From positions 1-34,369 of the forward strand of contig LVAZ01000176.1 in assembly GCA_001603055.1 (NCBI GenBank): 34,369 nt of DNA, in the 5' to 3' direction. Positions 19,480 to 34,369 of the stretch are shown one piece after another (the first letter of the stretch is position 1; each line of letters begins with the position of its first letter). Under the pieces are notes generated by a model, which was given only the letters and a program-made list of their open reading frames with translations, was not told the origin of the DNA and did not search any database. A program made the position numbers and the translations under genes. The DNA is from Victivallales bacterium Lenti_02 (GTDB lineage: Bacteria > Verrucomicrobiota > Lentisphaeria > Oligosphaerales > Lenti-02).

Positions 19480-19829
19480 GCGCGCGGTGGTGGGTAGAAG
19501 ATGTCGAATTCGGTGGCGCTGACGGCCAAGGGCAGAACGACGCCGTGGTGGACCAGGTCGGACAGGAAGAGCGTCAGGCCCAGGATGGCCAGCAGATGGC
19601 GGGGGAGGGGGGCGCAGGGCAGGGCGGCCAGCAATAGGCAGACCAGGCCGACATAGCCGTGGTGGATGCGCAGGCCGAAGGTGAGGGGGGCCAGCCAGGA
19701 GGTCTGTCGGGCGGCTTGCAGGCTGAGACCGAAGCGGCAGAGGCAGGTGGCAAGCTCGAACAGCACCGCTCCGGCCACCCCGGTCAGCAGGAGTTGACGG
19801 AACGATGCATGTTCGAGCCATTCACGCAT
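19476..19829 (-). CDS. small integral membrane protein
   Basis: 117 aa with 3-4 hydrophobic helices. It lies 5 nt downstream of glnS and overlaps the trmH start by 4 nt, so it appears co-transcribed. Confidence 0.5.
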   Translation of the reverse strand: MREWLEHASFRQLLLTGVAGAVLFELATCLCRFGLSLQAARQTSWLAPLTFGLRIHHGYVGLVCLLLAALPCAPLPRHLLAILGLTLFLSDLVHHGVVLPLAVSATEFDIFYPPPRA

Positions 19830-19834
19830 TGGGG

Positions 19835-21925
<2,091 letters not shown>

Positions 21926-21953
21926 CGGGCATTCTCCTTGGGTTCGCATCTGG

Positions 21954-21980
21954 AAAAAACGCGCGACCACCCGGTCGCGC
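21954..21980 (-). terminator. intrinsic-terminator-like hairpin inside the glnS 5' leader
   Basis: On the minus strand the sequence reads GCGCGACC-GGGT-GGTCGCGC followed by G-TTTTTT. The U-tract ends 28 nt upstream of the glnS ATG and lies downstream of the promoter candidate. Confidence 0.5.
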
Positions 21981-21994
21981 CAAAGCAAACCTAT

Positions 21995-22022
21995 ACTATA
22001 CGGGGTCGGCACGGCCCTGCAA
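21995..22022 (-). promoter_or_regulatory. sigma70-like promoter candidate for glnS (TTGCAG-N16-TATAGT)
   Basis: Minus-strand TTGCAG (22022-22017) and TATAGT (22000-21995). It lies in the 335-bp divergent intergenic region. Confidence 0.45.
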
Positions 22023-22053
22023 CGCTGGTCGCGACGAAGAGACGAGCCAGACG

Positions 22054-22098
22054 AACTGCGCAAAAATTGCGCAGTTGGACGGGCCGGATTGCGCAGTT
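22054..22098. promoter_or_regulatory. three copies of a 10-mer: perfect 23-bp palindrome plus a third half-site (operator / enhancer-like UAS)
   Basis: AACTGCGCAA-AAA-TTGCGCAGTT (22054-22076) is a perfect inverted repeat. The exact 10-mer TTGCGCAGTT recurs at 22089-22098, 22 bp (about two helical turns) from the right arm. Confidence 0.55.
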
Positions 22099-22148
22099 TT
22101 GGTACGGCGGACAGGGAACCGGGGGTCTTTTGGGCTTTGGCCAGAGCT

Positions 22149-22164
22149 TGGCACAGGGTCTGCA
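22149..22164 (+). promoter_or_regulatory. sigma54 (-24/-12) promoter candidate
   Basis: TGGCAC-AGGGT-CTGCA against the consensus TGGCAC-N5-TTGCA, with the GG-N10-GC spacing preserved. It lies about 97 nt upstream of ATG 22261 and 50-100 bp downstream of the 10-mer repeats. Confidence 0.55.
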
Positions 22165-22260
22165 ATAGGCTTGTCATGAACCGCCCGCCAGATCGGGCGG
22201 ATGGGTCGGACCAAGCAACCGGTGGCCGGCAAGGCCACCAAATCAACCAGGAGCATTCCG

Positions 22261-22846: not shown

Positions 22847-24490
22847 ATGACGGAAATTCTGGACCAACTGATCGACGAAGGGCGAGTCGCCGCGAGTGAT
22901 CGCGCGCGGCTCGCCCGCTTCCTTGCCGACCAGGCCGGGGCCGGCGTCGGCGACTGCCTGCGCTGGACGGCCGAACGGTACGGCGTGCGCTACTCGGATT
23001 TGCGCGGCGAGGAGCCGGATTCGGCCCTGCTGGCCCGTTTCCCGGCGGCCGTGCTCTGGCGCGAGGAACTGCTGCCCCTGCACCAGACCGAGGTGGGCAT
23101 CGAGGTGGCGACCGCCGCCCTGTTCCGCACCGAGGGACTGGACGCCCTGCGCCGGCTGGCCGGCGAGGAGCTGGTCCCCGTGGTGGTGCCCGACGCGGCC
23201 CTGCGCGAGGCGCTGAAAACCCATCTGGGAATCGGGGCGGACACGCTGGACTCGCTGGGTGACCGCGGGGTCTTCGCCAGCGCCGAGACGGATGCGGGCG
23301 TGGACCTCGAGGAGGCCGCCCACGACGCCACCATCATCCGCTTCGTCAACCAGATTTTCACCGACGCGATCCGCCAGCGGGCCACCGACATCCACCTGGA
23401 GCCCTTCGAGGACGAGTTCCGCGTCCGCTACCGCATCGACGGGGTGTTGCAGGATGTGCCCGTCCCGGCGACGATGAAACGCTACCAGCCCGCGATTGTC
23501 TCGCGCATCAAGATTCTGGCCAATCTGGACATCGCCGAGAAGCGTCTGCCCCAGGATGGGCGGGTGAAGCTGCGGCTGGCCGGCAGCCAGATCGACGTGC
23601 GCGTGTCCGTGATTCCGATGGTGCATGGCGAGGCGGTGGTGATGCGTCTGCTGCGCCAGGACGGGACGGTGATCGGGCTGGACCGTCTGGCGATGGGCGA
23701 ACGGGAGCTGCGGCTGTTCCGCGAGACCCTCGGCCTGTCCCACGGCATCGTGCTGGTGACCGGCCCGACCGGCAGCGGCAAGACCACCACGCTCTACGCC
23801 GCGCTCCAGGAAATCAACGACTCGGAGCGCAAGATCATCACCATCGAGGACCCGGTGGAGTACCAGGTGAAAGGCGTCAACCAGATTCAGGTGAACGAGA
23901 AGACCGCGCTCACCTTCGCCCGCGGCCTGCGCTCGATTCTGCGCCACGACCCCGACGTGGTGCTGGTGGGCGAAATCCGCGACGCCGAGACGGCCGCCAT
24001 CGCCGTCCAGGCCTCGCTCACCGGGCATCTGGTGTTCTCGACCCTGCACACCAACGATTCGCCGAGCGCTCTCACCCGGCTGGTGGACATGGGGGTCGAG
24101 CCCTATCTCGTGGCCTCGTCGGTGGACGCGATTCTGTCCCAGCGCCTGGTGCGGGTGCTGTGCCCGCACTGCAAGGAGCCGGACGATTCGGCGGAAACCC
24201 GGCGGGTGCTGAAAGGGATGGCCGGGGTGTACCGGGCGGTGGGCTGCGAAGCCTGCCGGCAGACCGGTTTCAGCGGCCGGCGCGGCATTTTCGAGCTGCT
24301 CGACATGCGCGAGGAGCTGCGCCGCCTGATTATGGACGGGTGTTCGGCGGGGCAACTGCGCGAGGCGGCGCGGGGGTTCGGCTGGCGTTCCCTCTACGAG
24401 GATGGCCTGCGGGTGATCGGGGAGGGTGACACCACCCTGGCCGAGGTGCTGCGCGTGAGCAAGGCCGGGCTGACGGGAGGCGAGGAATGA
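22847..24490 (+). CDS. gspE: type II secretion system ATPase GspE (PilB/GspE family)
   Basis: Walker A GPTGSGKTTT, the Asp box IITIEDPVEY, Walker B DPDVVLVGEIRD, the His box TGHLVFSTLHTN, and the tetracysteine CPHC...CEAC motif. It has an N-terminal T2SSE_N-like domain. Confidence 0.95.
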   Translation: MTEILDQLIDEGRVAASDRARLARFLADQAGAGVGDCLRWTAERYGVRYSDLRGEEPDSALLARFPAAVLWREELLPLHQTEVGIEVATAALFRTEGLDALRRLAGEELVPVVVPDAALREALKTHLGIGADTLDSLGDRGVFASAETDAGVDLEEAAHDATIIRFVNQIFTDAIRQRATDIHLEPFEDEFRVRYRIDGVLQDVPVPATMKRYQPAIVSRIKILANLDIAEKRLPQDGRVKLRLAGSQIDVRVSVIPMVHGEAVVMRLLRQDGTVIGLDRLAMGERELRLFRETLGLSHGIVLVTGPTGSGKTTTLYAALQEINDSERKIITIEDPVEYQVKGVNQIQVNEKTALTFARGLRSILRHDPDVVLVGEIRDAETAAIAVQASLTGHLVFSTLHTNDSPSALTRLVDMGVEPYLVASSVDAILSQRLVRVLCPHCKEPDDSAETRRVLKGMAGVYRAVGCEACRQTGFSGRRGIFELLDMREELRRLIMDGCSAGQLREAARGFGWRSLYEDGLRVIGEGDTTLAEVLRVSKAGLTGGEE

Positions 24491-25704
24491 ACCTGGTCTA
24501 CCGGGCACTTGCCGCCGACGGCACCATGCAGGAGGGGCGCCTCGAGGCGTCCAGCCGGGCCGAGGCGCTGCGGCGGCTGGCCGAGCGCGGTCTGCGCCCC
24601 CTGCACATGGCCGAGAACGTGGCCGATGCCGCCGCAGTGGAGAGCCATGCCGCCCAGATGCGCGGCCGCGTCTCCCAGGCGGAACTGGAGACCTTCACCC
24701 GGCAACTGGCCGCGCTGCTGGCGGCGGGGATTCCCCTGGCCCGGTCGTTGGAACGGCTGGCGGGCGAGGCCGGTTCGGCCAATGCCAGAGCCCAGTGGCG
24801 GGCCGTGCATGGCCTGGTGATCGACGGGGCCTCCCTGGCGGAGGCGATGGGACAATTTCCCCGGACCTTCCCCCGCGTCTACATCGCGATGGTCAAGGCG
24901 GGCGAGGCCGGCGGGTTTCTGGACGTGGTGCTGAACCAGGTGGCCGAATTCCAGTCGCGCGAGCGGGACTTGCGGGGCAAGGTGACGGCGGCGCTGGTCT
25001 ATCCGTTGGCCCTGGCCAGCCTGGCCACGGTGGTGGTGACCTTTCTGCTGGTCTACTTCATCCCCCGGTTCAAGACCATCTTCGACGACTTCGGGGCGGA
25101 ACTGCCGAGGCTGACGCAGGCGATCGTGGCCCTGGGGGACGGGGTGCGCCACTATGGCCTGGCCCTGGTGGCTCTGGCCGGCGTGGGGGGCGTGTTTTTC
25201 CTGCGCTGGTGGAACACGCCCGCAGGGCGTTTCCGCTGGGAGCAGTGGACGCTGCGGCAACCCCTGATCGGGGTGCTGGTCTCGCGTTTCGCCATGATCC
25301 GGTTCTGCCGGATGCTGGGGACGCTGGTGGGGGCGGGAGTGCCCCTGCTCGCCGCCCTGCGCGTGGCCCGCGAATCCCTCGGCAACCAGGTGCTGACCCG
25401 CGCGGCGGACCAGAGCGTCGAGCGCCTGAGCCAGGGCGGCAGGCTGGCCGACAGCCTCCAGGCCTGCGGCGGGCTCTTCCCCGGCTCGGCCCTCGAAATC
25501 ATCTCGGTGGCCGAGGAGACCGGGCGGCTGGAACAGGAACTGGTGCGGTTGGCCGACACCACGGAGGGCGAGCTGGACCGGCGGCTGCGCATGGCGGTGT
25601 CGCTGGCCGAGCCGGCCATGCTGGTGCTGATGGCCGGCGTGGTGGGAGGGATCGTGGTCGGCATGGTGCTGCCGATCTTCGCATTGCAGGATTACATCCG
25701 CTGA
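24487..25704 (+). CDS. gspF: type II secretion system inner-membrane platform protein GspF
   Basis: 405 aa with the duplicated GspF/PilC domain architecture: FTRQLAALLAAGIPLARSL and FCRMLGTLVGAGVPLLAAL, each followed by TM segments. It has an ATGA overlap with gspE. Confidence 0.9.
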   Translation: MNLVYRALAADGTMQEGRLEASSRAEALRRLAERGLRPLHMAENVADAAAVESHAAQMRGRVSQAELETFTRQLAALLAAGIPLARSLERLAGEAGSANARAQWRAVHGLVIDGASLAEAMGQFPRTFPRVYIAMVKAGEAGGFLDVVLNQVAEFQSRERDLRGKVTAALVYPLALASLATVVVTFLLVYFIPRFKTIFDDFGAELPRLTQAIVALGDGVRHYGLALVALAGVGGVFFLRWWNTPAGRFRWEQWTLRQPLIGVLVSRFAMIRFCRMLGTLVGAGVPLLAALRVARESLGNQVLTRAADQSVERLSQGGRLADSLQACGGLFPGSALEIISVAEETGRLEQELVRLADTTEGELDRRLRMAVSLAEPAMLVLMAGVVGGIVVGMVLPIFALQDYIR

Positions 25705-27677: not shown

Positions 27678-28969
27678 AATCCGCCTCCCAGCATGGTTTC
27701 GCCCTGATTCTGGTGCTGTGGCTGGCGCTGGCGCTGGCTGCGACGGCCCTCTGTTTCGGCCAGGTCGCCGTGCTGGGCTACCGGACCCGGAGCGGGGCGC
27801 GGGCGAATCTGCAATGCCGCCACACGGAGCAGGCCGCCGCCGTCTATGTCAAAGCCCTGCTGGCGACGGTGGAGGCCGGGGAGATGCCGGAACTGGAGAG
27901 CGAGGACGTGAAGGAAATCCCGGTCGGCGGCAGCGCCTTCTGGCTGCTGGCCCCGATCTGGAACGAAAGTCCCGAGCTGTCCTACGGCCTGGTCTCCGAG
28001 GCGGGGAAACTGAATCTGAACACCGCCGGCAAGGCGATGCTCCAGGCGCTGCCGGGGATGACCGAGGCGCTCGCGGCGGCCATCGTCGACTGGCGGGACG
28101 CGGATTCGGAACCGCAGCCCTACGGCGCGGAGGACGAGACCTATTCCCGCAAGAAGCCCCCCTACCGGGCCAAAAACGCGCCCTTCGACAGCATCGAGGA
28201 ACTGCTGCTGGTCGAGGGGATGACCGAGGATATCCTCTACGGCAAGGACCGCAACCGGAACGGGGAGATCGACCCCTGGGAGGGGGATGGCACAGGGGGC
28301 AACCTGGCCGATTACGGCATCTATCATCTGGTCACGGTCCATAGCGCCGAACCGAACGGGACCGGCGGCGGCGGCGAGGGCAGGACCAATGTCACCGACG
28401 CCCAGGCTCTGCGCCGCTTTCTGGCCCGGACCTTCGATCCCCAGACGGCCAGCCGGGCGGAAAGCGCCGGCCCCTACCGGAGCGTGCTCGAATTCGCCGC
28501 CCGCAGCGGGCTGGAGCGCGAGCAGTTCGAGCGGATCGCCAAGGAGTTGACCATGTCGGACGAGGAGACAGTGCCGGGGCTGGTGAACGTGAATGTGGCC
28601 CCCCTCGCGGTGCTGCGTTGTCTCCCGGGGATCGGCGACGGCGACGCGGAAAAGCTGATCGCCTACCGGGTCGCCAATTCCAGTAGCTTGACCAGCATCG
28701 CCTGGGTGCTGGACGCGCTGGGCGACGACCGCGCCCGCGAGCTGGGACCCAGGGTGACCACCCGGACCTATCAGATTTCCGCCGACGTGGTGGTGGTGGC
28801 CGACTATCGCCGGGCCGTGCGGCGGGTCCGTCTGGTTTTCGATTTGTCCTCCGGATCCCCCTTGCTGGTGGCCCGGCGGGACCTGAGCGGCATGGCGTGG
28901 CCGCTGGGCGAGGATATGTGGAACGAATGGATAACGAAAACTCTGGCCGACAGCGACGAAGGATCATGA
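27674..28969 (+). CDS. gspK: minor pseudopilin GspK
   Basis: N-terminus HGFALILVLWLALAL lacks Glu +5, as GspK does. GKLNLNTAGKAMLQALPGMTEALAAAIVDWRD and a second LVNVNVAPLAVLRCLPGIGDGDAEKLIAYR (paired helix-hairpin-helix-like modules) are typical of T2SSK. Confidence 0.8.
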   Translation: MKSASQHGFALILVLWLALALAATALCFGQVAVLGYRTRSGARANLQCRHTEQAAAVYVKALLATVEAGEMPELESEDVKEIPVGGSAFWLLAPIWNESPELSYGLVSEAGKLNLNTAGKAMLQALPGMTEALAAAIVDWRDADSEPQPYGAEDETYSRKKPPYRAKNAPFDSIEELLLVEGMTEDILYGKDRNRNGEIDPWEGDGTGGNLADYGIYHLVTVHSAEPNGTGGGGEGRTNVTDAQALRRFLARTFDPQTASRAESAGPYRSVLEFAARSGLEREQFERIAKELTMSDEETVPGLVNVNVAPLAVLRCLPGIGDGDAEKLIAYRVANSSSLTSIAWVLDALGDDRARELGPRVTTRTYQISADVVVVADYRRAVRRVRLVFDLSSGSPLLVARRDLSGMAWPLGEDMWNEWITKTLADSDEGS

Positions 28970-30348
28970 ATACCGTGAGTCATACCAGCAAATCAGCGGC
29001 CACGCTCGGTCTCTTCCTTGGCGGGGGACGACTGGCCTATGCCGTGGTCCGCGCGGGCGCGGTCGAGGCGCAGGACTGCGTTCCCTTCGCTCTGGACCCC
29101 GGCCGGGACGAGGCGGAGGTGATCGCGGCCAAACTGCGCGAGGTTCTGGCAAGCGCCCGGATTTCGGCCCGGAATTGCCGCTTGGCCCTGCCGTTGAACT
29201 GGGTGGTGGGCAGCCGCTTCTCGTCCGTCGGCCTGCCGCCGGAGGCGTTGGTCGCCACGGCGGCGCTCGAACTGGAGCGGCAGTGCGGGGCACCGGTCCC
29301 GGCGGCGGGTCTGCTGTGCCAGCCCCCGGACGCCGCCGGCCAGGTTCTGGCTGTGGCGGTGGAGCCGGGCGTGGCCCGCCAGTTGGCCGAGGCCTGCCGT
29401 CTGGCCGGTCTGCGGCTCGAAGCCTTGCTGCCCGCCGTGGCCGGCGCGCTCCCGTTGGAGACGGTCGGAACGGAGGTGGACATTCTGCCGCTGCCCGAGC
29501 AGATGGACGCCCTGGTCCGCCGCCAGGGGCGGCCGGCGGTTCTGCGCCAGCTCGCGCTGTATCGCGACAGTTCCGGTCCGCATCTCGACGAGTGTCTGAC
29601 GACGGCCATGCGCAACCTGCTGGTGACGCTGTCCGCGTTTTCCGGCGAGGAAGCCGAGCGGGTGTCGGTCCGGGTGCTCGGCACCGGCCAACTGGCCGAG
29701 GGGCTGACGGCGCGGATTCGCGAGCGGGCGGAGTGGCAGTGCGTCCCGGCCCAGCCGGGGGGGCACCAGCCGGCCGTCCAGGCGGCGCTCATGGCCGCGC
29801 GGCATCCCGGATTCGGCGACGATGCGCTCTGCCTGGTTCCCCCCGAGCGGGAGCGGTCTTCCCGCTGGTGGGCGACGCGGGCGGGCCGTCCCCTGGTTGC
29901 CGCCGGGGTCGCGCTGGCGCTGGCCGGTCTGGCCTTCGGCGGGGCGTTTCTGGCCCGGCGGCTGGAAATCCGGCGGCTGGAGGACGGTCTGGCCCGGCTC
30001 GCCGATCAGCGGCGGGAGGCGGAGGAACTGCGCGACGAACTGCGCTCGACGGCCCCCTGGTTCCGCCAGGAACCCGAGCGGCTGACGGTGCTGCTGGTCG
30101 TGGCCGAGGCGTTCCCGGAACGGGGGACAGTCTGGGTGACCGATTTGGCGATCGAGCCCGACGGCACGGTGTCGCTCACGGGCTGCGCACGGGACCAGAA
30201 CAGCCTGTTCCAGGTGACGGAGGCGCTCGGCAAGCGGACCCGGAATCTGGGTGTGCTGCGCACTCGGCAAGGCACCAAGACAGGCGATCCCATGACCTTC
30301 TCGATTTCGTTTTCGCTGCCCTCGGCAACCCGCAGCGGAGGTGCCTGA
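28966..30348 (+). CDS. gspL: GspL-like assembly protein (PilM-like cytoplasmic domain + TM + PilN-like periplasmic domain)
   Basis: 460 aa with a single TM (LVAAGVALALAGLAFGGAFLA) near residue 310, followed by a coiled segment RRLEIRRLEDGLARLADQRREAEELRDEL. It has an ATGA overlap with gspK, and its position fits GspL. Confidence 0.55.
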   Translation: MNTVSHTSKSAATLGLFLGGGRLAYAVVRAGAVEAQDCVPFALDPGRDEAEVIAAKLREVLASARISARNCRLALPLNWVVGSRFSSVGLPPEALVATAALELERQCGAPVPAAGLLCQPPDAAGQVLAVAVEPGVARQLAEACRLAGLRLEALLPAVAGALPLETVGTEVDILPLPEQMDALVRRQGRPAVLRQLALYRDSSGPHLDECLTTAMRNLLVTLSAFSGEEAERVSVRVLGTGQLAEGLTARIRERAEWQCVPAQPGGHQPAVQAALMAARHPGFGDDALCLVPPERERSSRWWATRAGRPLVAAGVALALAGLAFGGAFLARRLEIRRLEDGLARLADQRREAEELRDELRSTAPWFRQEPERLTVLLVVAEAFPERGTVWVTDLAIEPDGTVSLTGCARDQNSLFQVTEALGKRTRNLGVLRTRQGTKTGDPMTFSISFSLPSATRSGGA

Positions 30349-30350
30349 CC

Positions 30351-30902
30351 ATGTTTGGAAGACGTGAACGATACTTGGCGGTGGTGGGGCTGGTGTTCCT
30401 GTTTGCCTTTGTGGGCGACCGGATGCTGCTGCCCCCGCTGCGGGCCGCCTGGCGGGCGGACGGCGAACGGGCGGCGGTCCTGCGGGGCGAACTGACGGCG
30501 GTGGAACGCCTTGCCGACTCCCTGCCGAACTGGCGCCGGGAAAGCGAGCGCCGCCGCGAGCTGTCCTTCCCCAGCCGGCGAACCGAAGCCGAAAACGAGG
30601 TGCTGAAGACGGTGGCAGCCCATGCCGTCGAGCGCGGGGTTCTGCTCAAGGGTCTGCGTCCCGCCTGGCGCGAAAATGCGGACCGGGACCGGAACTCCCT
30701 GCCGCTGCTGGAACTGGCGGTGTCGGCCGAGGGCAATCTGACGGCGGTGGCCGGTTTCCTCTACGATCTGGAAACCATGCCCGCCCCGGTGCGCCTGGAA
30801 CGGACCCGTCTGCATTCGCGGGCCGAGAACGGTCGCGCGCTGGATGTGGAACTGGTGCTGACGGCGCTGCCGGGCACCGTGGCGGCGGAGGCGGCGCGAT
30901 GA
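30351..30902 (+). CDS. gspM: GspM/PilO-like bitopic assembly protein
   Basis: 183 aa with an N-terminal TM (YLAVVGLVFLFAFVG) and a periplasmic domain. It starts 2 nt after the gspL-like stop. The assignment rests on position and topology only. Confidence 0.45.
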   Translation: MFGRRERYLAVVGLVFLFAFVGDRMLLPPLRAAWRADGERAAVLRGELTAVERLADSLPNWRRESERRRELSFPSRRTEAENEVLKTVAAHAVERGVLLKGLRPAWRENADRDRNSLPLLELAVSAEGNLTAVAGFLYDLETMPAPVRLERTRLHSRAENGRALDVELVLTALPGTVAAEAAR

Positions 30903-31423
30903 TCGGGAAAACGGCATTGGCTTGGCTTCTTTTCGGCTTGGCGGTCGTCGCCGACCCGCCGCCCTTCAGCGCGTACCGGCTGGTGGTCGAGCGCAACATC
31001 TTCGATGCCACCCGGCAGCCGCAGCGGGAGGCCACGCCCCGCGAGCCCGAGGTCCGGCCCCCGCCGCCGGTGGCGAAGACCCTGGCCCTGGCCGGTGTCT
31101 TCATCGCCGACGACCGGGCCGTGGCTCTGTTTGCCGACGCGCGGCAGGCGGTCGTTGCCGTGGCCGTCGGCCAGGCGGTCGAGGGACTGACCGTCGCGCT
31201 GGTGGATTCCACCGGGGCGGAGCTGGCCCTCGGCGGGGAGCGCCGGTTGCGCGTGGCGGTGGGGGAACGGCTCAGCGACGGCGGCGAGGGCGTCTGGACG
31301 GTGGTCGGCCGGGCCGCGCAGGCCCCCTCGGTGCAGCAGGAAAAGACGGAACGGCAGACCGCCAGCCAGGCGGAGTTGTTGCAGCGGCTCATGGAACGCA
31401 GAAAACGGGAACTCGGACAATGA
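30899..31423 (+). CDS. gspC: GspC/PilP-like protein
   Basis: 174 aa with an N-terminal TM or signal (TALAWLLFGLAVVA), an ERNIFD motif, a Pro-rich linker, then a small beta domain (LALAGVFIADDRAVALF...). It lies immediately upstream of the secretin, with ATGA overlaps on both sides. Confidence 0.45.
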   Translation: MIGKTALAWLLFGLAVVADPPPFSAYRLVVERNIFDATRQPQREATPREPEVRPPPPVAKTLALAGVFIADDRAVALFADARQAVVAVAVGQAVEGLTVALVDSTGAELALGGERRLRVAVGERLSDGGEGVWTVVGRAAQAPSVQQEKTERQTASQAELLQRLMERRKRELGQ

Positions 31424-33006
31424 ACACCTTTTTCACTCGCAGGCTGGTTTTGTCGCTGGCGGCCGCCGGGCTGCTTCACGCTCCGTTGCGGGGCTGGTCC
31501 CAGGAGGAGGGTGGCTTGCCCGAGGCCGTCGTCGAGGCGCTGGTCGCCGAAGCGGTGGCACCCGAGGCCGAGGCCCCGGCGCGGGATGCTCCCGAGGCCG
31601 GGAAGCCGGTCGAGGTCCGGCCCTTTGCCCCGCCGCCGCCGCCCGCCCCGTTGCCGGACGCCCCGCCGCCGGTGCCCGCCGGGAAGATTCTGTTCAATTT
31701 CCGCAGTGCCCCGGTGGATGCGGTGCTGGACCATCTCAGCCAGGCGGCCGGCTTCATCATCGTCAAGGACGTGCCGGTGAGCGGCAGCGTGGATGTGTGG
31801 AGCCATCAGCCGCTCGATCCGGACGAGGCGGTGGAACTGCTGAACACCGTGCTGGCCCGGCAGGGGCTGGCGGCGGTGCGGACCGAGCGGGTGCTGCGGA
31901 TCGTCTCGCGCTCGGCGGCTCTGGCGGCCGACCTGCCGGTGGCGGCGGGGGCCGATCCCGATAAAATCAATCGGTCCGACAGCATGGCCACCCAGATCAT
32001 CCCCGTCAAATATGCCGATGCGGCGAAGCTGGTGGAGAATCTCCGCCCGCTGCTGGGCGAGGGCTCCCAGCTCTCGGCCAACGCCTCGAGCAATTCGCTG
32101 ATTCTCACCGACACCCGGACGAACATCCGGCGCATGGTGCTGATCGTCAAGGCCCTTGACACCTCGATCTCGAACATCACCGAAATCCGCGTGTTCCCGC
32201 TCGAACATGCCAAGGCCACGGATTTGGCCGAGGTGGTGAACAAGGTGTTCGCCAAGCCCGACCAGAACCAGAGCACCAATCGGGGCGGCCCGATGGAGTT
32301 CATCGCCCGGATGCGCCGGGGCGGGCCGGGCGGCATGCCGGGCGGGGGCGAACAGACGGAAGGGGGAACCAGCGAGGCGAAGCTGGCCACCGCCAGCGTG
32401 ACCGCCGTGGGCGACGAGCGCAGCAACTCGCTGGTGGTCAGCGCCTCCGACGAATTGATGCCGCAGGTGGCCGCCCTGGTCAAGCAGGTGGACGTGCCGA
32501 CGGAGGACGCGGCGGTGGTCGAGGTCTATTTCCTGCGCTACGCGGACGCCGCCGACGTGGCCGAGATTCTCCAGAAGGTCTACACCACCAGCACCACCAG
32601 CAGCAACCAGAACGCCTCCACCCAGCGCCAGTTCGGCATGTTCGGCGGGCGGATGATGCCCGGCGGTTCCCAGCAACAGCAGCAAACCAGCACCAGCCGC
32701 TCGCTCGGGGAGGCCGAGGTGAAGGTGGTGGCGGACACGCGGACCAACGCCCTGATCGTCAGCGCCTCGCCCACCACGCTCGCTTCGGTGGGCAAGGTGA
32801 TCGAGAAGCTCGACGAGACCCCGAAGAACGTGAACCAAATCTACATCTACCGGATCGAGAACGCCGATCTCGAGAATCTCAAGACCATCCTGCAGGGGCT
32901 GTTCGACGACATCGAGAGCACCGGCACCACCACCACCCTGGCCCCGACCGGCGGCACCCGCACGGGCACCACGACCGGCACCGGCACCGGCAGAACCAGA
33001 AACTAG
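31420..33006 (+). CDS. gspD: secretin GspD, N-terminal part only (signal peptide + N0-N3-like domains, no beta-barrel domain)
   Basis: Signal peptide MNTFFTRRLVLSLAAAGLLHA. It has N-domain repeats: FNFRSAPVDAVLDHLS..., IIPVKYADAAKLVENLRPLL...SNSLILTDTRTNIRRMVLIVKALD, IRVFPLEHAKATDLAEVVNKVF...SNSLVVSASDELMPQVAALVKQVD, VYFLRYADAADVAEILQKVY...TNALIVSASPTTLASVGKVIEKLD, and a final half-repeat IYIYRIENADLENLKTILQGLF. It ends in a Thr/Gly-rich tail and TAG 33004-33006. Confidence 0.85.
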   Translation: MNTFFTRRLVLSLAAAGLLHAPLRGWSQEEGGLPEAVVEALVAEAVAPEAEAPARDAPEAGKPVEVRPFAPPPPPAPLPDAPPPVPAGKILFNFRSAPVDAVLDHLSQAAGFIIVKDVPVSGSVDVWSHQPLDPDEAVELLNTVLARQGLAAVRTERVLRIVSRSAALAADLPVAAGADPDKINRSDSMATQIIPVKYADAAKLVENLRPLLGEGSQLSANASSNSLILTDTRTNIRRMVLIVKALDTSISNITEIRVFPLEHAKATDLAEVVNKVFAKPDQNQSTNRGGPMEFIARMRRGGPGGMPGGGEQTEGGTSEAKLATASVTAVGDERSNSLVVSASDELMPQVAALVKQVDVPTEDAAVVEVYFLRYADAADVAEILQKVYTTSTTSSNQNASTQRQFGMFGGRMMPGGSQQQQQTSTSRSLGEAEVKVVADTRTNALIVSASPTTLASVGKVIEKLDETPKNVNQIYIYRIENADLENLKTILQGLFDDIESTGTTTTLAPTGGTRTGTTTGTGTGRTRN

Positions 33007-33027
33007 GCCAGATCGGGAGCGAAACCC

Positions 33028-34095
33028 ATGAAACACCCTATCGCCATTCTTATCGCCTTCCTCGCCGCGGCCGCCGTCCTGGCCCAGACCCCCGCCTCCC
33101 GTCCGGCTTCCTTTCTGGAGGCGTCGGAGCAGCGCAAGCTGGGCACCGCCCATTTCGAGATCGATCTCGACTCGAACACCCTGATCGTCACCACCGACCA
33201 GGAGACCAACGAGACGATCAAGCGGCTGGTGGCCGAGCTGGACCGGCCCATTCCCCAGGTGCTCATCAACGTCCTCTTTCTCGAAGTCACCTATGGCGAC
33301 GATCTGGATCTGGGCACCGAGATCACCTACACCTCGGTTTCCGGCGACGGGGATACCCGGACCCTCGGCTCGCTCTTCAATCTGGGCGGTCTTGCCCAGG
33401 GCGGTTCGCTCACCCTTGCCAAGGGCGAGCTGGACGTGGTCTTCAAGGCCCTCGCCACGAAGACCAAGACCGAGGTGCTGTCGCGGCCCTCGATCATGGC
33501 CCGCAACAACCAGGAATCCACCATCACCATCGGTTCGGAAGTGCCTTTCATCCGCAACAGCCAGGTGACGGACTCGGGCGGGGTGCTGAACACCATCGAG
33601 TACGAGGACGTGGGCATCATCCTCAAAGTCACCCCCCGGATCAACGCCGACGGCCTGGTGGAGATGACCGTGGCCCCGGAGATTTCCGCGATTTCGGCGG
33701 AAACGGTGCCGATTTCCGAAAGCGTCACCGCGCCCACCTTCGTCAAGCGTTCCGCCGAGACCCGGGTCATGGTGCAGAGCGGCCGGACCGTGGTGATCGG
33801 CGGCCTGATGGAGGACCAGGAAAACCGGGAGGTGCGCAAGGTGCCGCTGCTCGGCGACATCCCGCTCGTGGGCGCGCTCTTCCGGCGCACGATCATCGAG
33901 AAATCCAAAACCGAACTGCTGATTTTCCTGACCCCCCACGTGGTCACCGGCAACACGGCCGACTCCCTGGTGGAAATGGAGAAACGGGCGGTCGGGATCG
34001 CCGGGTCGGTCGACGCCGAGCGGCTCCAGCGGTATTTTGAGAGCACCGGCGGCAGCAACGGGCCGGCCGCCGTCCCTGCGGCACCCCGTCCCTGA
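33028..34095 (+). CDS. gspD: secretin GspD, C-terminal part (own signal peptide + half N-domain + secretin beta-barrel domain)
   Basis: GGGAG lies 9 nt upstream. Signal peptide MKHPIAILIAFLAAAAVLAQ, then NTLIVTTDQETNETIKRLVAELDRPIPQVLINVLFLEV. The secretin core follows: KTEVLSRPSIMARNNQESTITIGSEVPF, YEDVGIILKVTPRINADGLV, RTVVIGGLMED, KVPLLGDIPLVGALFR, ELLIFLTPHVV. Confidence 0.9.
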   Translation: MKHPIAILIAFLAAAAVLAQTPASRPASFLEASEQRKLGTAHFEIDLDSNTLIVTTDQETNETIKRLVAELDRPIPQVLINVLFLEVTYGDDLDLGTEITYTSVSGDGDTRTLGSLFNLGGLAQGGSLTLAKGELDVVFKALATKTKTEVLSRPSIMARNNQESTITIGSEVPFIRNSQVTDSGGVLNTIEYEDVGIILKVTPRINADGLVEMTVAPEISAISAETVPISESVTAPTFVKRSAETRVMVQSGRTVVIGGLMEDQENREVRKVPLLGDIPLVGALFRRTIIEKSKTELLIFLTPHVVTGNTADSLVEMEKRAVGIAGSVDAERLQRYFESTGGSNGPAAVPAAPRP

Positions 34096-34106: not shown

Positions 34107-34369
34107 ATGAACCGACGCAATGGCCTCATCTACCTGCTTCTGCTCGTCGTCTGGCTGGCGCTGGTGGCGTTGCAGATGGCCGAGCATCGCGGCTTCGAGC
34201 GTTCCAGCCGGGAGTCCCTGCTGCGCCATGCCCGCGACCTGTCCAACTCCCTGGGCGTGGTTATCCGTTCGCAGCGGCGTTTCGGCACGGTGCCGAAGAA
34301 CCGGCTGGAAGGCGCGTTGCAGGGACTGGCCGAGTCCCAGGAAATGCTGGGCATTGTGCTGTTCAACCC
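34107..34369 (+). CDS. membrane-anchored protein, N-terminal fragment (3' end outside window; possibly a sensor protein)
   Basis: GAGGAG lies 8 nt upstream of ATG 34107. The frame is open to the window end, reading MNRRNGLIYLLLLVVWLALVALQMAEH..., which is one TM helix followed by a soluble segment. The function is a guess. Confidence 0.4.
   Translation, partial: MNRRNGLIYLLLLVVWLALVALQMAEHRGFERSSRESLLRHARDLSNSLGVVIRSQRRFGTVPKNRLEGALQGLAESQEMLGIVLFN

What the first reader, a model, noticed from the sequence alone, without database searches (positions are those of the whole stretch)
31420..34095. Secretin split into two same-frame ORFs by a single TAG, with a second signal peptide and a break inside an N-domain
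Seen in sequence:
- The GspD N-domain part (31420-33006) and the beta-barrel part (33028-34095) are in the same reading frame, separated only by TAG 33004-33006 and 21 nt.
- The downstream piece has its own SD (GGGAG 33014-33018) and a clean cleavable-looking signal peptide (MKHPIAILIAFLAAAAVLAQ).
- The upstream piece ends in a Thr/Gly-rich tail.
- The break does not fall between domains. The first half of an N-domain repeat (IYIYRIENADLENLKTILQGLF) ends ORF1, and the complementary half (NTLIVTTDQETNETIKRLVAELD) opens ORF2.

Established knowledge: secretins are normally single polypeptides whose N-domains stack under the barrel.

Inference: this is either a genuinely two-chain secretin, with both chains exported independently and the split N-domain reconstituted in trans, or a recent nonsense lesion. 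The acquired signal peptide argues for a functional split, which I have not seen described.
Basis: partly seen in the sequence, partly recalled or inferred. Interest (0 to 1): 0.7.

Follow-up and report, generated by a model that had tools for sequence, protein, structure and literature searches.

The report
Conserved two-gene type II secretin
The outer-membrane channel protein (secretin) of this bacterium's type II secretion system is encoded as two adjacent genes, each with its own export signal, that break inside one small domain; this split is old and conserved across many PVC-group and related bacteria, so it is not a mutation or a sequencing error.

Summary
ORF1 (31420-33006, N0 plus three Secretin_N domains) and ORF2 (33028-34095, secretin barrel) are in one frame, separated by TAG and 21 nt, and ORF2 starts with a signal-peptide-like segment.

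It is not a recent lesion. The same adjacent gene pair occurs in 52 species-level genomes (Lentisphaeria, Verrucomicrobiota including Akkermansia, Kiritimatiellota, Sumerlaeota, Omnitrophota) and in more than 100 metagenome protein clusters.

- The split forms separate cleanly from single-chain planctomycete GspD (bootstrap 100/100).
- Both genes are under purifying selection.
- All 166 ORF1-type proteins end in an orphan beta1-alpha1.
- Every ORF2 starts with a hydrophobic leader followed by beta2-beta3-alpha2.
- Only the two pieces joined pass Pfam's Secretin_N threshold.
- In fused relatives the break maps to the disordered alpha1-beta2 loop of the N domain next to the barrel.

The shared frame is incidental. 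The three closest relatives have gaps of 20, 32 and 25 nt, and all three stop codons are used.

Best explanation: an obligate two-chain GspD, with both chains Sec-exported and the N domain rebuilt in trans. That last step is inferred.

Precedents are the rhizobial T3SS pair RhcC1/RhcC2 and the mitochondrial GspD fragments. I found no description for bacterial T2SS.

The parts
22847..25704 (+). gspE (22847-24490) and gspF (24487-25704): the ATPase and the inner-membrane platform of the same T2SS operon
   Evidence: Pfam T2SSE 462 bits and T2SSF 188 bits
26793..28969 (+). Minor pseudopilin genes: gspJ-like (ends 27677) and gspK-like (ends 28969)
   Evidence: Pfam T2SSJ, T2SSK_1st and T2SSK. The same order is seen in L001 and L003.
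28897..31423 (+). Three genes with no Pfam match, in the positions of gspL, gspM and gspC: 28897-30348, 30351-30902 (GspM-like) and 30899-31423 (GspC-like). The last stop overlaps the ORF1 start (ATGA).
   Evidence: NCBIfam GspM 28.7 bits and GspC_delta 24.7 bits, both below cut-off. Syntenic genes of the same sizes occur in L001, L003 and L086.
31420..33006 (+). ORF1, the periplasmic chain of the secretin (gspD-N, 528 aa). It has an N-terminal signal-peptide-like segment, a Pro/Ala-rich linker, N0 and three complete Secretin_N domains.
   Evidence: Pfam N0 and Secretin_N x3. TIGR02517 GspD positions 1-338 of 600, 222 bits. The 120 listed homologs are 351-894 aa (median about 524), and all but one lack PF00263.
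32839..32904 (+). Orphan first half (beta1-alpha1, aa 474-495) of the last N domain
   Evidence: Secretin_N positions 3-26. It aligns to beta1-alpha1 of the last N domain of fused GspD. It is present at the C-terminus of 166 of 166 ORF1-type proteins and is never followed by beta2-beta3-alpha2. dN is 0.03 against relatives that are 80-89% identical.
32905..33003 (+). Acidic turn and Thr/Gly-rich low-complexity C-terminal tail of ORF1. It derives from the alpha1-beta2 loop.
   Evidence: It aligns with the low-complexity loop of fused homologs. pLDDT is below 50 in the model.
33004..33027 (+). TAG stop (33004-33006) and a 21-nt spacer carrying the GGAG Shine-Dalgarno (33016-33019)
   Evidence: No promoter-like or terminator-like site lies between the ORFs.
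33028..33084 (+). ORF2 signal-peptide-like leader (aa 1-19). The predicted SPase I site is VLA|QT.
   Evidence: Of 119 homologs, 117 have a hydrophobic N-terminus, 112 have K/R before it and 90 have an A(x)Q motif after it. The leader is absent from the equivalent loop of fused homologs. No SignalP run was possible.
33145..33243 (+). Second half (beta2-beta3-alpha2, aa 40-72) of the same N domain, directly before the barrel
   Evidence: Secretin_N positions 34-69. It aligns to the second half of N3 of E. coli GspD 5wq7. The model gives beta 42-46, beta 51-56 and helix 58-71, with pLDDT 82-88.
33028..34095 (+). ORF2, the outer-membrane chain (gspD-C, 355 aa): leader, linker, half N domain, secretin core (Pfam aa 141-306, nt 33448-33945) and short C-terminal helices
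   Evidence: Pfam Secretin 173 bits. TIGR02517 positions 291-593, 243 bits. The best PDB matches are T2SS GspD, by sequence and by fold.

Best explanation
This is an ancient, functional gene fission of a type II secretion secretin (GspD), not a lesion. The two genes are co-transcribed and translated separately.

ORF1 is exported to the periplasm by its own signal peptide. It carries N0, three N domains and the first half (beta1-alpha1) of a final N domain.

ORF2 is exported by a second signal peptide that sits where fused relatives have a disordered loop. It carries the second half (beta2-beta3-alpha2) of that N domain and the secretin core that multimerises in the outer membrane.

The two halves then complement each other non-covalently and rebuild the N domain adjacent to the barrel. 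Each protomer of the channel would therefore be a 1:1 pair of chains, and the ORF1 chain would link the pore to the inner-membrane platform through N0.

What is shown:
- conservation of the split;
- a single clade of split forms;
- purifying selection on both genes;
- tiling of the domain by the two pieces;
- the position of the break in a loop.

What is inferred:
- export and cleavage of both chains;
- 1:1 complementation in trans;
- any selective advantage of the split.
For: Conservation:
- The 119 full-length ORF2 homologs among the 120 listed are 306-431 aa, down to about 46% identity, and start with a hydrophobic leader.
- 119 of 120 ORF1 homologs lack the secretin domain.

Synteny and adjacency:
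- In 52 split loci from GTDB species representatives, and in JGI/Logan contigs, an ORF1-type reading frame lies directly upstream of ORF2. Where both ends could be placed (47 loci) the gap is 3-159 nt. The T2SS operon order is the same in the JGI contigs.

Single clade:
- In a neighbour-joining tree of the barrel region, 47 split and 27 fused loci form one bipartition with bootstrap 100/100.

Break point:
- In a MAFFT alignment, the stop plus the leader is an insertion in the alpha1-beta2 loop of the last N domain of fused planctomycete GspD.
- That loop is 32-189 aa (median 45) in fused proteins as measured; the longest values include a whole missed N domain. It has no genuine hydrophobic segment.

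Half domains:
- Pfam scores are 13.2 and 23.3 bits separately and 33.4 bits joined, against a cut-off of 28.2.
- TIGR02517 is tiled over positions 1-338 and 291-593.
- 166 of 166 ORF1-type proteins end in an orphan beta1-alpha1.

Selection:
- dN/dS is 0.21-0.36 for both ORFs, and the half-domain segments are among the most conserved.

Model:
- In an AlphaFold2 model of the ORF1 tail fused to ORF2 (mean pLDDT 78), the ORF1-derived beta1-alpha1 reaches pLDDT 71-79 although no alignment row covers it. The same segment scored about 30 when folded from a single sequence.
- Fold matches are T2SS GspD, with E around 1e-25.
Against: - There is no direct evidence that either chain is made, exported, cleaved or bound to the other.
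- The model is an artificial single-chain fusion that still contains the leader, and inter-residue contacts could not be inspected. The pLDDT rise is therefore only suggestive.
- Alignments that paired both chains could not be used, and MAFFT misaligned mixed sets.
- The clade result comes from an unrooted neighbour-joining tree without classical GspD outgroups. 'Single origin' is the parsimonious reading, not a proven one.
- The leader could be an uncleaved anchor in some members, and 2 of 119 look like lipoproteins.
Confidence: 0.78

Rival explanations
1. Recent nonsense mutation or pseudogene: a single-chain gspD was broken by a TAG and is decaying.
For: In the window the two ORFs share a frame and are separated by one stop and 21 nt.
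Against: - The interruption is shared by 52 species-level genomes in at least five phylum-level groups, and by all close relatives.
- Both ORFs are under purifying selection.
- The SD, the ATG and the leader are conserved.
- Relatives have other frames and other stop codons.
Confidence: 0.01
2. Sequencing or assembly error created the stop.
For: None beyond the in-frame arrangement.
Against: The same 355-aa protein (exact or at least 90% identical) is found on three assemblies (NCBI 34,369 bp; Logan 12,179 bp; Logan 3,934 bp), and the 528-aa ORF1 on two. Dozens of independent assemblies show the same architecture.
Confidence: 0.01
3. Programmed stop-codon read-through or recoding yields a single-chain secretin, at least as a minor product. 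The in-frame arrangement is kept for that reason.
For: In-frame spacing is over-represented: 29 of 47 split loci against 1/3 expected. The binomial P is 6e-5 if loci are treated as independent. The inferred ancestral state is in-frame.
Against: - 18 of 47 loci, and the three closest relatives, are out of frame.
- TAA, TAG and TGA are all used.
- A read-through product would carry an internal hydrophobic segment in a periplasmic loop.
- The excess is explained more simply as a decaying trace of an in-frame origin. Point mutations that move the stop or the start keep the frame, and only indels change it.
Confidence: 0.04
4. Two independent proteins: ORF2 alone forms a short secretin (like phage pIV or RcpA). 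ORF1 is a separate periplasmic ring protein that associates, if at all, by ring stacking. The half-domain ends are vestigial.
For: Short secretins exist: pIV, 414 aa, and RcpA are among the PDB matches. No contact data are available for the two halves.
Against: - The two half-domain segments are the most conserved parts near the junction (dN 0.03 against 0.05-0.14 for the whole genes).
- They are retained in all 166 ORF1-type proteins and in all aligned ORF2s. That is not expected of vestiges.
- An isolated beta-beta-alpha or beta-alpha piece is not a stable fold (established knowledge of the N-domain/KH-like fold).
- The model places beta1-alpha1 with moderate confidence.
Confidence: 0.14

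Closest known systems
Single-chain T2SS secretin GspD (E. coli GspD 5wq7, P. aeruginosa XcpQ 5wln, Klebsiella PulD 6hcg; NCBIfam TIGR02517). The nearest fused relatives are planctomycete GspD.
   Same: - The domain set and order are the same: N0, Secretin_N repeats and the secretin core.
- It sits in a gspE-F-pseudopilin-J-K-(L/M/C-like) operon.
- These are the best sequence and fold matches.
- Fused planctomycete proteins align colinearly across the junction.
   Different: - It is encoded and made as two polypeptides, each with its own leader.
- Neither ORF reaches the TIGR02517 cut-off (222 and 243 bits against 351).
- The break lies inside the N domain next to the barrel.
[quoted passage not shown]
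Split T3SS secretin of the Rhc family (RhcC1/NolW and RhcC2; HrcIIC1/HrcIIC2 of P. syringae T3SS-2)
   Same: The secretin is encoded as separate N-terminal and C-terminal ORFs, conserved within a lineage, and the functional significance is unknown (PMC3574062).
   Different: - It belongs to a different machine (T3SS SctC). Here TIGR02516 scores only 57 and 114 bits.
- The Rhc genes are separated by other genes or lie in different segments, whereas here they are adjacent (21 nt).
- Where the Rhc break falls relative to the domains was not examined here.
Mitochondrial T2SS remnants of some protists (GspD, GspDL, GspDN1-3)
   Same: GspD is broken into several polypeptides. [quoted passage not shown]
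   Different: - These are eukaryotic and nuclear-encoded, lack N0, and the barrel protein keeps only part of the C domain.
Accessory periplasmic ring proteins under secretins (for example TsaP with PilQ, RcpC with RcpA)
   Same: A separate periplasmic chain associates with a secretin barrel chain.
   Different: Those partners are unrelated folds that bind complete secretins. Here the partner is the secretin's own N-terminal region and shares a split domain. This comparison rests on general knowledge and was not tested here.

Membership tests
Secretin superfamily / T2SS GspD | C-terminal secretin pore domain (PF00263) | tested here: met
   ORF2 aa 141-306, 173 bits against a cut-off of 27.5.
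Secretin superfamily / T2SS GspD | Periplasmic N0 domain followed by Secretin_N (N1-N3 type) repeats | tested here: met
   ORF1 has N0 at 40 bits and Secretin_N at 160 bits over 3 stretches. A fourth repeat is completed only by joining the ORF1 tail to the ORF2 head.
Secretin superfamily / T2SS GspD | One polypeptide that spans N domains and pore and reaches the curated full-length score (TIGR02517 equivalog, 351 bits) | tested here: not met
   ORF1 scores 222 bits over model positions 1-338. ORF2 scores 243 bits over positions 291-593. Each is below the cut-off, and together they tile the model.
Secretin superfamily / T2SS GspD | Encoded with T2SS core genes (GspE, GspF, pseudopilins including GspJ/K, GspL/M/C) | tested here: met
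   GspE, GspF, GspJ and GspK are found by Pfam. The GspM and GspC matches are weak. The same order is seen in relatives.
Secretin superfamily / T2SS GspD | Closest solved structures are T2SS secretins | tested here: met
   hmmsearch against the PDB gives 5wq7 at 9e-65. Foldseek gives 5zdh, 5wq8 and 5wq7 at E around 1e-25.
Secretin superfamily / T2SS GspD | Forms a 12-16-mer outer-membrane channel that exports folded proteins | not testable with these tools
   This needs biochemistry or cryo-EM.
Rhc-type split T3SS secretin (RhcC1/RhcC2) | Secretin encoded as separate N-part and C-part genes | tested here: met
   The description of the Rhc family is in PMC3574062.
Rhc-type split T3SS secretin (RhcC1/RhcC2) | SctC-type secretin within a T3SS gene cluster | tested here: not met
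   TIGR02516 scores 57 and 114 bits, against 222 and 243 bits for GspD. The neighbours are T2SS genes.
Pseudogene / nonsense lesion | The interruption is absent from relatives, and constraint is relaxed | tested here: not met
   The interruption is present in all relatives examined. dN/dS is 0.21-0.36.
Programmed read-through / recoded stop | Conserved stop-codon identity and a conserved reading frame across the stop | tested here: not met
   TAA, TAG and TGA are all used, and 18 of 47 loci plus the 3 closest relatives are out of frame.
Sec-exported protein with cleavable signal peptide (ORF2) | N-terminal positive n-region, a hydrophobic h-region of 10-16 residues, and small residues at -3/-1 | tested here: inconclusive
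   The pattern is present (MKH / PIAILIAFLAAAAVLA / VLA|Q) and is conserved in 117 of 119 homologs. No dedicated predictor and no N-terminal sequencing were available.

The most novel reading that the evidence does not exclude
The fission inside a Secretin_N domain seen in this PVC/Sumerlaeota clade may be the bacterial antecedent of the fragmented mitochondrial GspD. In protists, GspDN3 and GspDN2 are the N-terminal and C-terminal halves of such a domain, and a co-occurring protein family (Gcp16) is otherwise found only in PVC bacteria. If so, it would point to the lineage that donated the mitochondrial T2SS. A more modest version is that the non-covalent joint acts as a releasable coupling between the pore and the inner-membrane platform.
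Probability: 0.06. Interest if true: 0.85.

Novelty: new variant of a known kind. Interest (0 to 1): 0.62.

Why it matters
Secretins are treated as homo-oligomers of one chain. The N domain next to the barrel is regarded as part of the stable assembly core.

A large natural clade in which that domain is split between two separately exported chains has three uses:

1. It is a ready-made fragment-complementation system for studying the order of secretin assembly, meaning which part reaches the outer membrane first and what the N domains contribute.
2. It warns that annotation and system-detection pipelines will under-call T2SS in PVC bacteria, Sumerlaeota and Omnitrophota. Neither half reaches the GspD equivalog threshold. 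NCBI names the first half only 'secretin N-terminal domain-containing protein'.
3. It gives a bacterial parallel for the fragmented mitochondrial GspD.

The clade includes Akkermansia, so the arrangement is accessible in a cultivable organism.

Tried and rejected
Structure prediction
- AlphaFold2 on a single-sequence chimera (ORF1 363-528 plus mature ORF2) gave a mean pLDDT of 30.7 and was uninformative.
- Four MAFFT alignments that mixed the chimera with ORF1 homologs, ORF2 homologs and fused homologs were inspected and discarded. The repeated N domains and the leaders were misaligned.
- Only an alignment restricted to ORF2 homologs was clean and was used.
- Foldseek gave no per-residue ranges, so docking of beta1-alpha1 could not be verified from contacts.

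Akkermansia leads
- I suspected that Akkermansia Amuc_1098/1099 was this pair. It is not: Amuc_1098 is a 907-aa single-chain PilQ.
[quoted passage not shown] I could not map it to L049.

Scripts
- A hand-written motif for beta1-alpha1 found nothing and was replaced by small HMMs.
- Five to ten fused proteins appeared to have hydrophobic loops. This was an artefact of a missed N domain.

Literature
- Literature searches for a split bacterial T2SS secretin found none.
- The library does not cover most subscription journals.


Full report
**1. The observation**

The window (67% G+C) carries two ORFs on the + strand.
- ORF1 runs 31420-33006 (528 aa) and ORF2 runs 33028-34095 (355 aa).
- Both start at positions equal to 1 mod 3. 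They are separated by TAG (33004-33006) and 21 nt.
- A GGAG lies at 33016-33019, 8 nt before the ATG.
- Pfam finds N0 and three Secretin_N stretches in ORF1.
- Pfam finds the Secretin pore domain (aa 141-306) in ORF2, plus a match to only the second half of Secretin_N (profile positions 34-69 of 69).
- ORF1 ends with IYIYRIENADLENLKTILQGLF and a Thr/Gly-rich tail.
- ORF2 opens with MKHPIAILIAFLAAAAVLAQ.

**2. The break really is inside a domain**

Pfam Secretin_N:
- The ORF1 tail alone matches positions 3-26 (13.2 bits).
- The ORF2 head alone matches positions 34-69 (23.3 bits).
- The two joined match positions 3-69 at 33.4 bits, above the curated 28.2-bit cut-off.

NCBIfam's GspD equivalog (TIGR02517, 600 positions, cut-off 351 bits) is tiled in the same way. 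ORF1 covers positions 1-338 (222 bits) and ORF2 covers 291-593 (243 bits).

Against solved structures, the ORF2 family profile aligns to E. coli GspD 5wq7 from residue 267. That is from the second half of N3 onwards.

**3. Context**

The pair closes a T2SS operon:
- gspE at 22847-24490;
- gspF at 24487-25704;
- pseudopilins, including GspJ-like and GspK-like genes;
- three genes without Pfam hits, two of which give weak GspM and GspC matches;
- then ORF1, whose ATG overlaps the previous stop, and ORF2.

No promoter-like or terminator-like site separates the two ORFs.

**4. It is not a lesion or an error**

- The 120 best homologs of ORF2 are 234-431 aa (one is a partial entry; the other 119 are 306-431 aa). 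They run from 99% down to about 46% identity and come from Lentisphaeria, Sumerlaeota (BRC1), Hydrogenedentes and unnamed metagenomes.
- In a 29-sequence alignment every one begins with Met, a basic residue, a hydrophobic stretch and usually A-Q. A variable linker follows, and then the conserved beta2-beta3-alpha2.
- 117 of 119 full-length homologs have the hydrophobic N-terminus.
- The 120 best homologs of ORF1 are 351-894 aa. All but one lack the pore domain, and NCBI calls them 'secretin N-terminal domain-containing protein'.
- On long contigs the pair is adjacent and follows the same T2SS genes. It is followed by a histidine kinase and a sigma-54 response regulator.
- A scan of one genome per GTDB species returned 80 loci: 52 split, 24 fused and 4 cut by contig ends.
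  - The split loci come from Lentisphaeria, Verrucomicrobiota including Opitutaceae, Limisphaerales, Pedosphaera and an Akkermansia MAG, a Kiritimatiellota isolate, Sumerlaeota and Omnitrophota.
  - The fused loci are mostly Planctomycetota.
- The window's own ORF2 cluster holds three assemblies, and its ORF1 cluster holds two.
- Against relatives of 89%, 80%, 71% and 66% identity, dN/dS is 0.21-0.32 for ORF1 and 0.23-0.36 for ORF2.
- The two half-domain segments are among the most conserved. Their dN is about 0.03 at a divergence where the whole genes show 0.05-0.14.

**5. The shared frame is incidental**

- The three closest relatives whose DNA was fetched have gaps of 20, 32 and 25 nt. They keep the GGAG and the ATG.
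- Across 47 split loci where both ends could be placed, 29 are in frame and 18 are not. TAA, TAG and TGA all occur.
- This rules out read-through or recoding as the general mechanism.
- The in-frame excess (29 of 47 against 1/3; binomial 6e-5 if loci are independent, which they are not fully) fits an origin by an in-frame event. A parsimony reconstruction also puts 'in frame' at the base of the clade. The frame relation has since been eroding through indels. This is an inference.

**6. Where the break lies in fused relatives**

- A MAFFT L-INS-i alignment of concatenated split pairs with fused planctomycete proteins is colinear.
- The ORF1 tail aligns to beta1-alpha1 of the last N domain (for example SIFVYPLKNARADNLKTVLNNLF). 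The ORF2 head aligns to its beta2-beta3-alpha2 (AVYIESDEDTNSLLVMTSSKNFEKIKKIIEGLD).
- The stop, spacer and leader appear as an insertion in the low-complexity loop between them.
- In 141 fused proteins that loop measures 32-189 aa (median 45) and has no genuine hydrophobic segment. The few apparent cases, which are also the longest loops, came from a missed domain.
- All 47 split ORF2s have a hydrophobic 12-mer before beta2.
- With small HMMs, 166 of 166 ORF1-type proteins end in a beta1-alpha1. It lies a median of 44 residues from the C-terminus and is never followed by a beta2-beta3-alpha2.
- The number of complete N domains varies. ORF1-type proteins reach 894 aa and fused ones 1350 aa. The orphan half at the end is constant.

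**7. One clade**

On 323 well-aligned columns of the barrel region, a neighbour-joining tree separates all 47 split loci from all 27 fused loci by one branch with 100/100 bootstrap. The 27 comprise the 24 fused loci above plus three extra stored records of them. The tree is unrooted with respect to classical GspD, so a single fission is the parsimonious reading rather than a proven one.

**8. Structure**

- A single-sequence AlphaFold2 run was useless, with a mean pLDDT of 30.7.
- A second run used ORF1 aa 467-528 joined to full ORF2, with a clean alignment of 116 ORF2 homologs that leaves the ORF1 piece uncovered. It gave a mean pLDDT of 78.
  - ORF1-derived beta1 (IYIYRI) and alpha1: pLDDT 71-79.
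  - Thr/Gly tail and post-leader linker: below 50.
  - Leader, modelled as an isolated helix: 51-69.
  - beta2-beta3-alpha2: 82-88.
  - Barrel: 80-96.
- Foldseek's best matches are T2SS GspD structures, with E around 1e-25.
- I could not inspect contacts. This supports but does not prove that the two halves pack as one domain.

**9. Mechanism proposed**

Both chains are exported by Sec. ORF2 multimerises and inserts in the outer membrane. ORF1 docks by supplying beta1-alpha1 to the incomplete N domain under the barrel, which gives two chains per protomer, and it links to the inner-membrane platform through N0.

- Shown: conservation, selection, tiling and the loop position of the break.
- Inferred: export, cleavage, stoichiometry, complementation in trans, and any benefit of the split. 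Possible benefits are easier export or assembly of two smaller chains, a releasable joint, or none at all, in which case this is a neutral fission in a tolerant loop.

**10. What is known**

- 'Split secretin' is an established feature of the rhizobial (Rhc) T3SS family. There RhcC1 and RhcC2 are separate and usually distant genes of unknown significance (PMC3574062).
- In the mitochondrial T2SS of some protists, GspD is broken into several proteins. Two of them are the N-terminal and C-terminal halves of a Secretin_N domain (PMC8134430).
- For bacterial T2SS, a 2023 review states that the pore is an oligomer of a single polypeptide (PMC10128026).
- A large comparative study of type IV filament systems does not mention a split secretin (PMC6668835).
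- My other full-text searches found nothing. The library lacks most subscription journals, so I cannot exclude an earlier mention.
- The genes are present and separately named in public annotation.

**11. Verdict**

This is a real, ancient and conserved two-gene GspD, broken in the alpha1-beta2 loop of the barrel-proximal N domain, with a second leader acquired there.
- It is a new variant of a known kind.
- Its main interest is for secretin assembly, for annotation of T2SS outside Proteobacteria, and as a parallel to the mitochondrial system.

Noticed in passing
Split loci L001-L083 and window 33004-33027: The stop-to-start spacing is a multiple of 3 in 29 of 47 split loci (expected 1/3). Parsimony on the barrel tree puts 'in frame' at the root, with at least 13 later changes. 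This may be a fossil of an in-frame origin. Selection for rare read-through is not excluded.
   Followed up: partly
Window 34107-34369 (runs off the end); L001:7074-10129, L003:7170-10169, L085:3149-5652, L086:3573-6062: A histidine kinase (HisKA/HATPase_c) and a sigma-54-dependent response regulator follow the secretin pair in the four related loci whose downstream genes were annotated. In the window, an ORF starting MNRRNGLIYLLLLVVWLALVAL begins 11 nt after the ORF2 stop and is presumably that kinase.
   Followed up: partly
P0139 (894 aa), P0163 (812 aa); fused P0256/P0258 (about 1350 aa): The number of Secretin_N repeats varies widely in both the split and the fused clades, from about 3 to 7 or more. 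The periplasmic stalk length is therefore very plastic in these phyla, while the orphan half-domain end is constant.
   Followed up: partly
L049:2093-5047 (MAG labelled Akkermansia muciniphila): Akkermansia carries the split pair: ORF1 of 562 aa, then TGA, a 39-nt spacer, and ORF2 of 408 aa starting at ATG 3821. [quoted passage not shown] It may be the barrel chain. I could not establish the mapping.
   Followed up: partly
L031, L036 (fused) against L007, L009-L012, L016, L020, L023 (split), all labelled Sumerlaeota or BRC1: Sumerlaeota genomes contribute both split and fused secretins. Either some carry two T2SS of different ancestry, or one type was transferred between phyla.
   Followed up: no
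L030 ORF2 N-terminus (…LLIGCSAPQS); 2 of 119 ORF2 homologs: A few barrel chains have a lipobox-like motif instead of an SPase I site. Some members may be lipidated, which would make them self-piloting secretins.
   Followed up: no
Window 19805-22168 (+): A 787-aa ORF immediately upstream of the T2SS genes has no Pfam match.
   Followed up: no
Window 28897-31423: The three genes between gspK and the secretin pair have no Pfam hits. They give only sub-threshold NCBIfam matches (GspM 28.7 bits, GspC_delta 24.7 bits), and the 483-aa protein in the GspL position matches nothing. The inner-membrane platform of this clade is highly divergent.
   Followed up: partly
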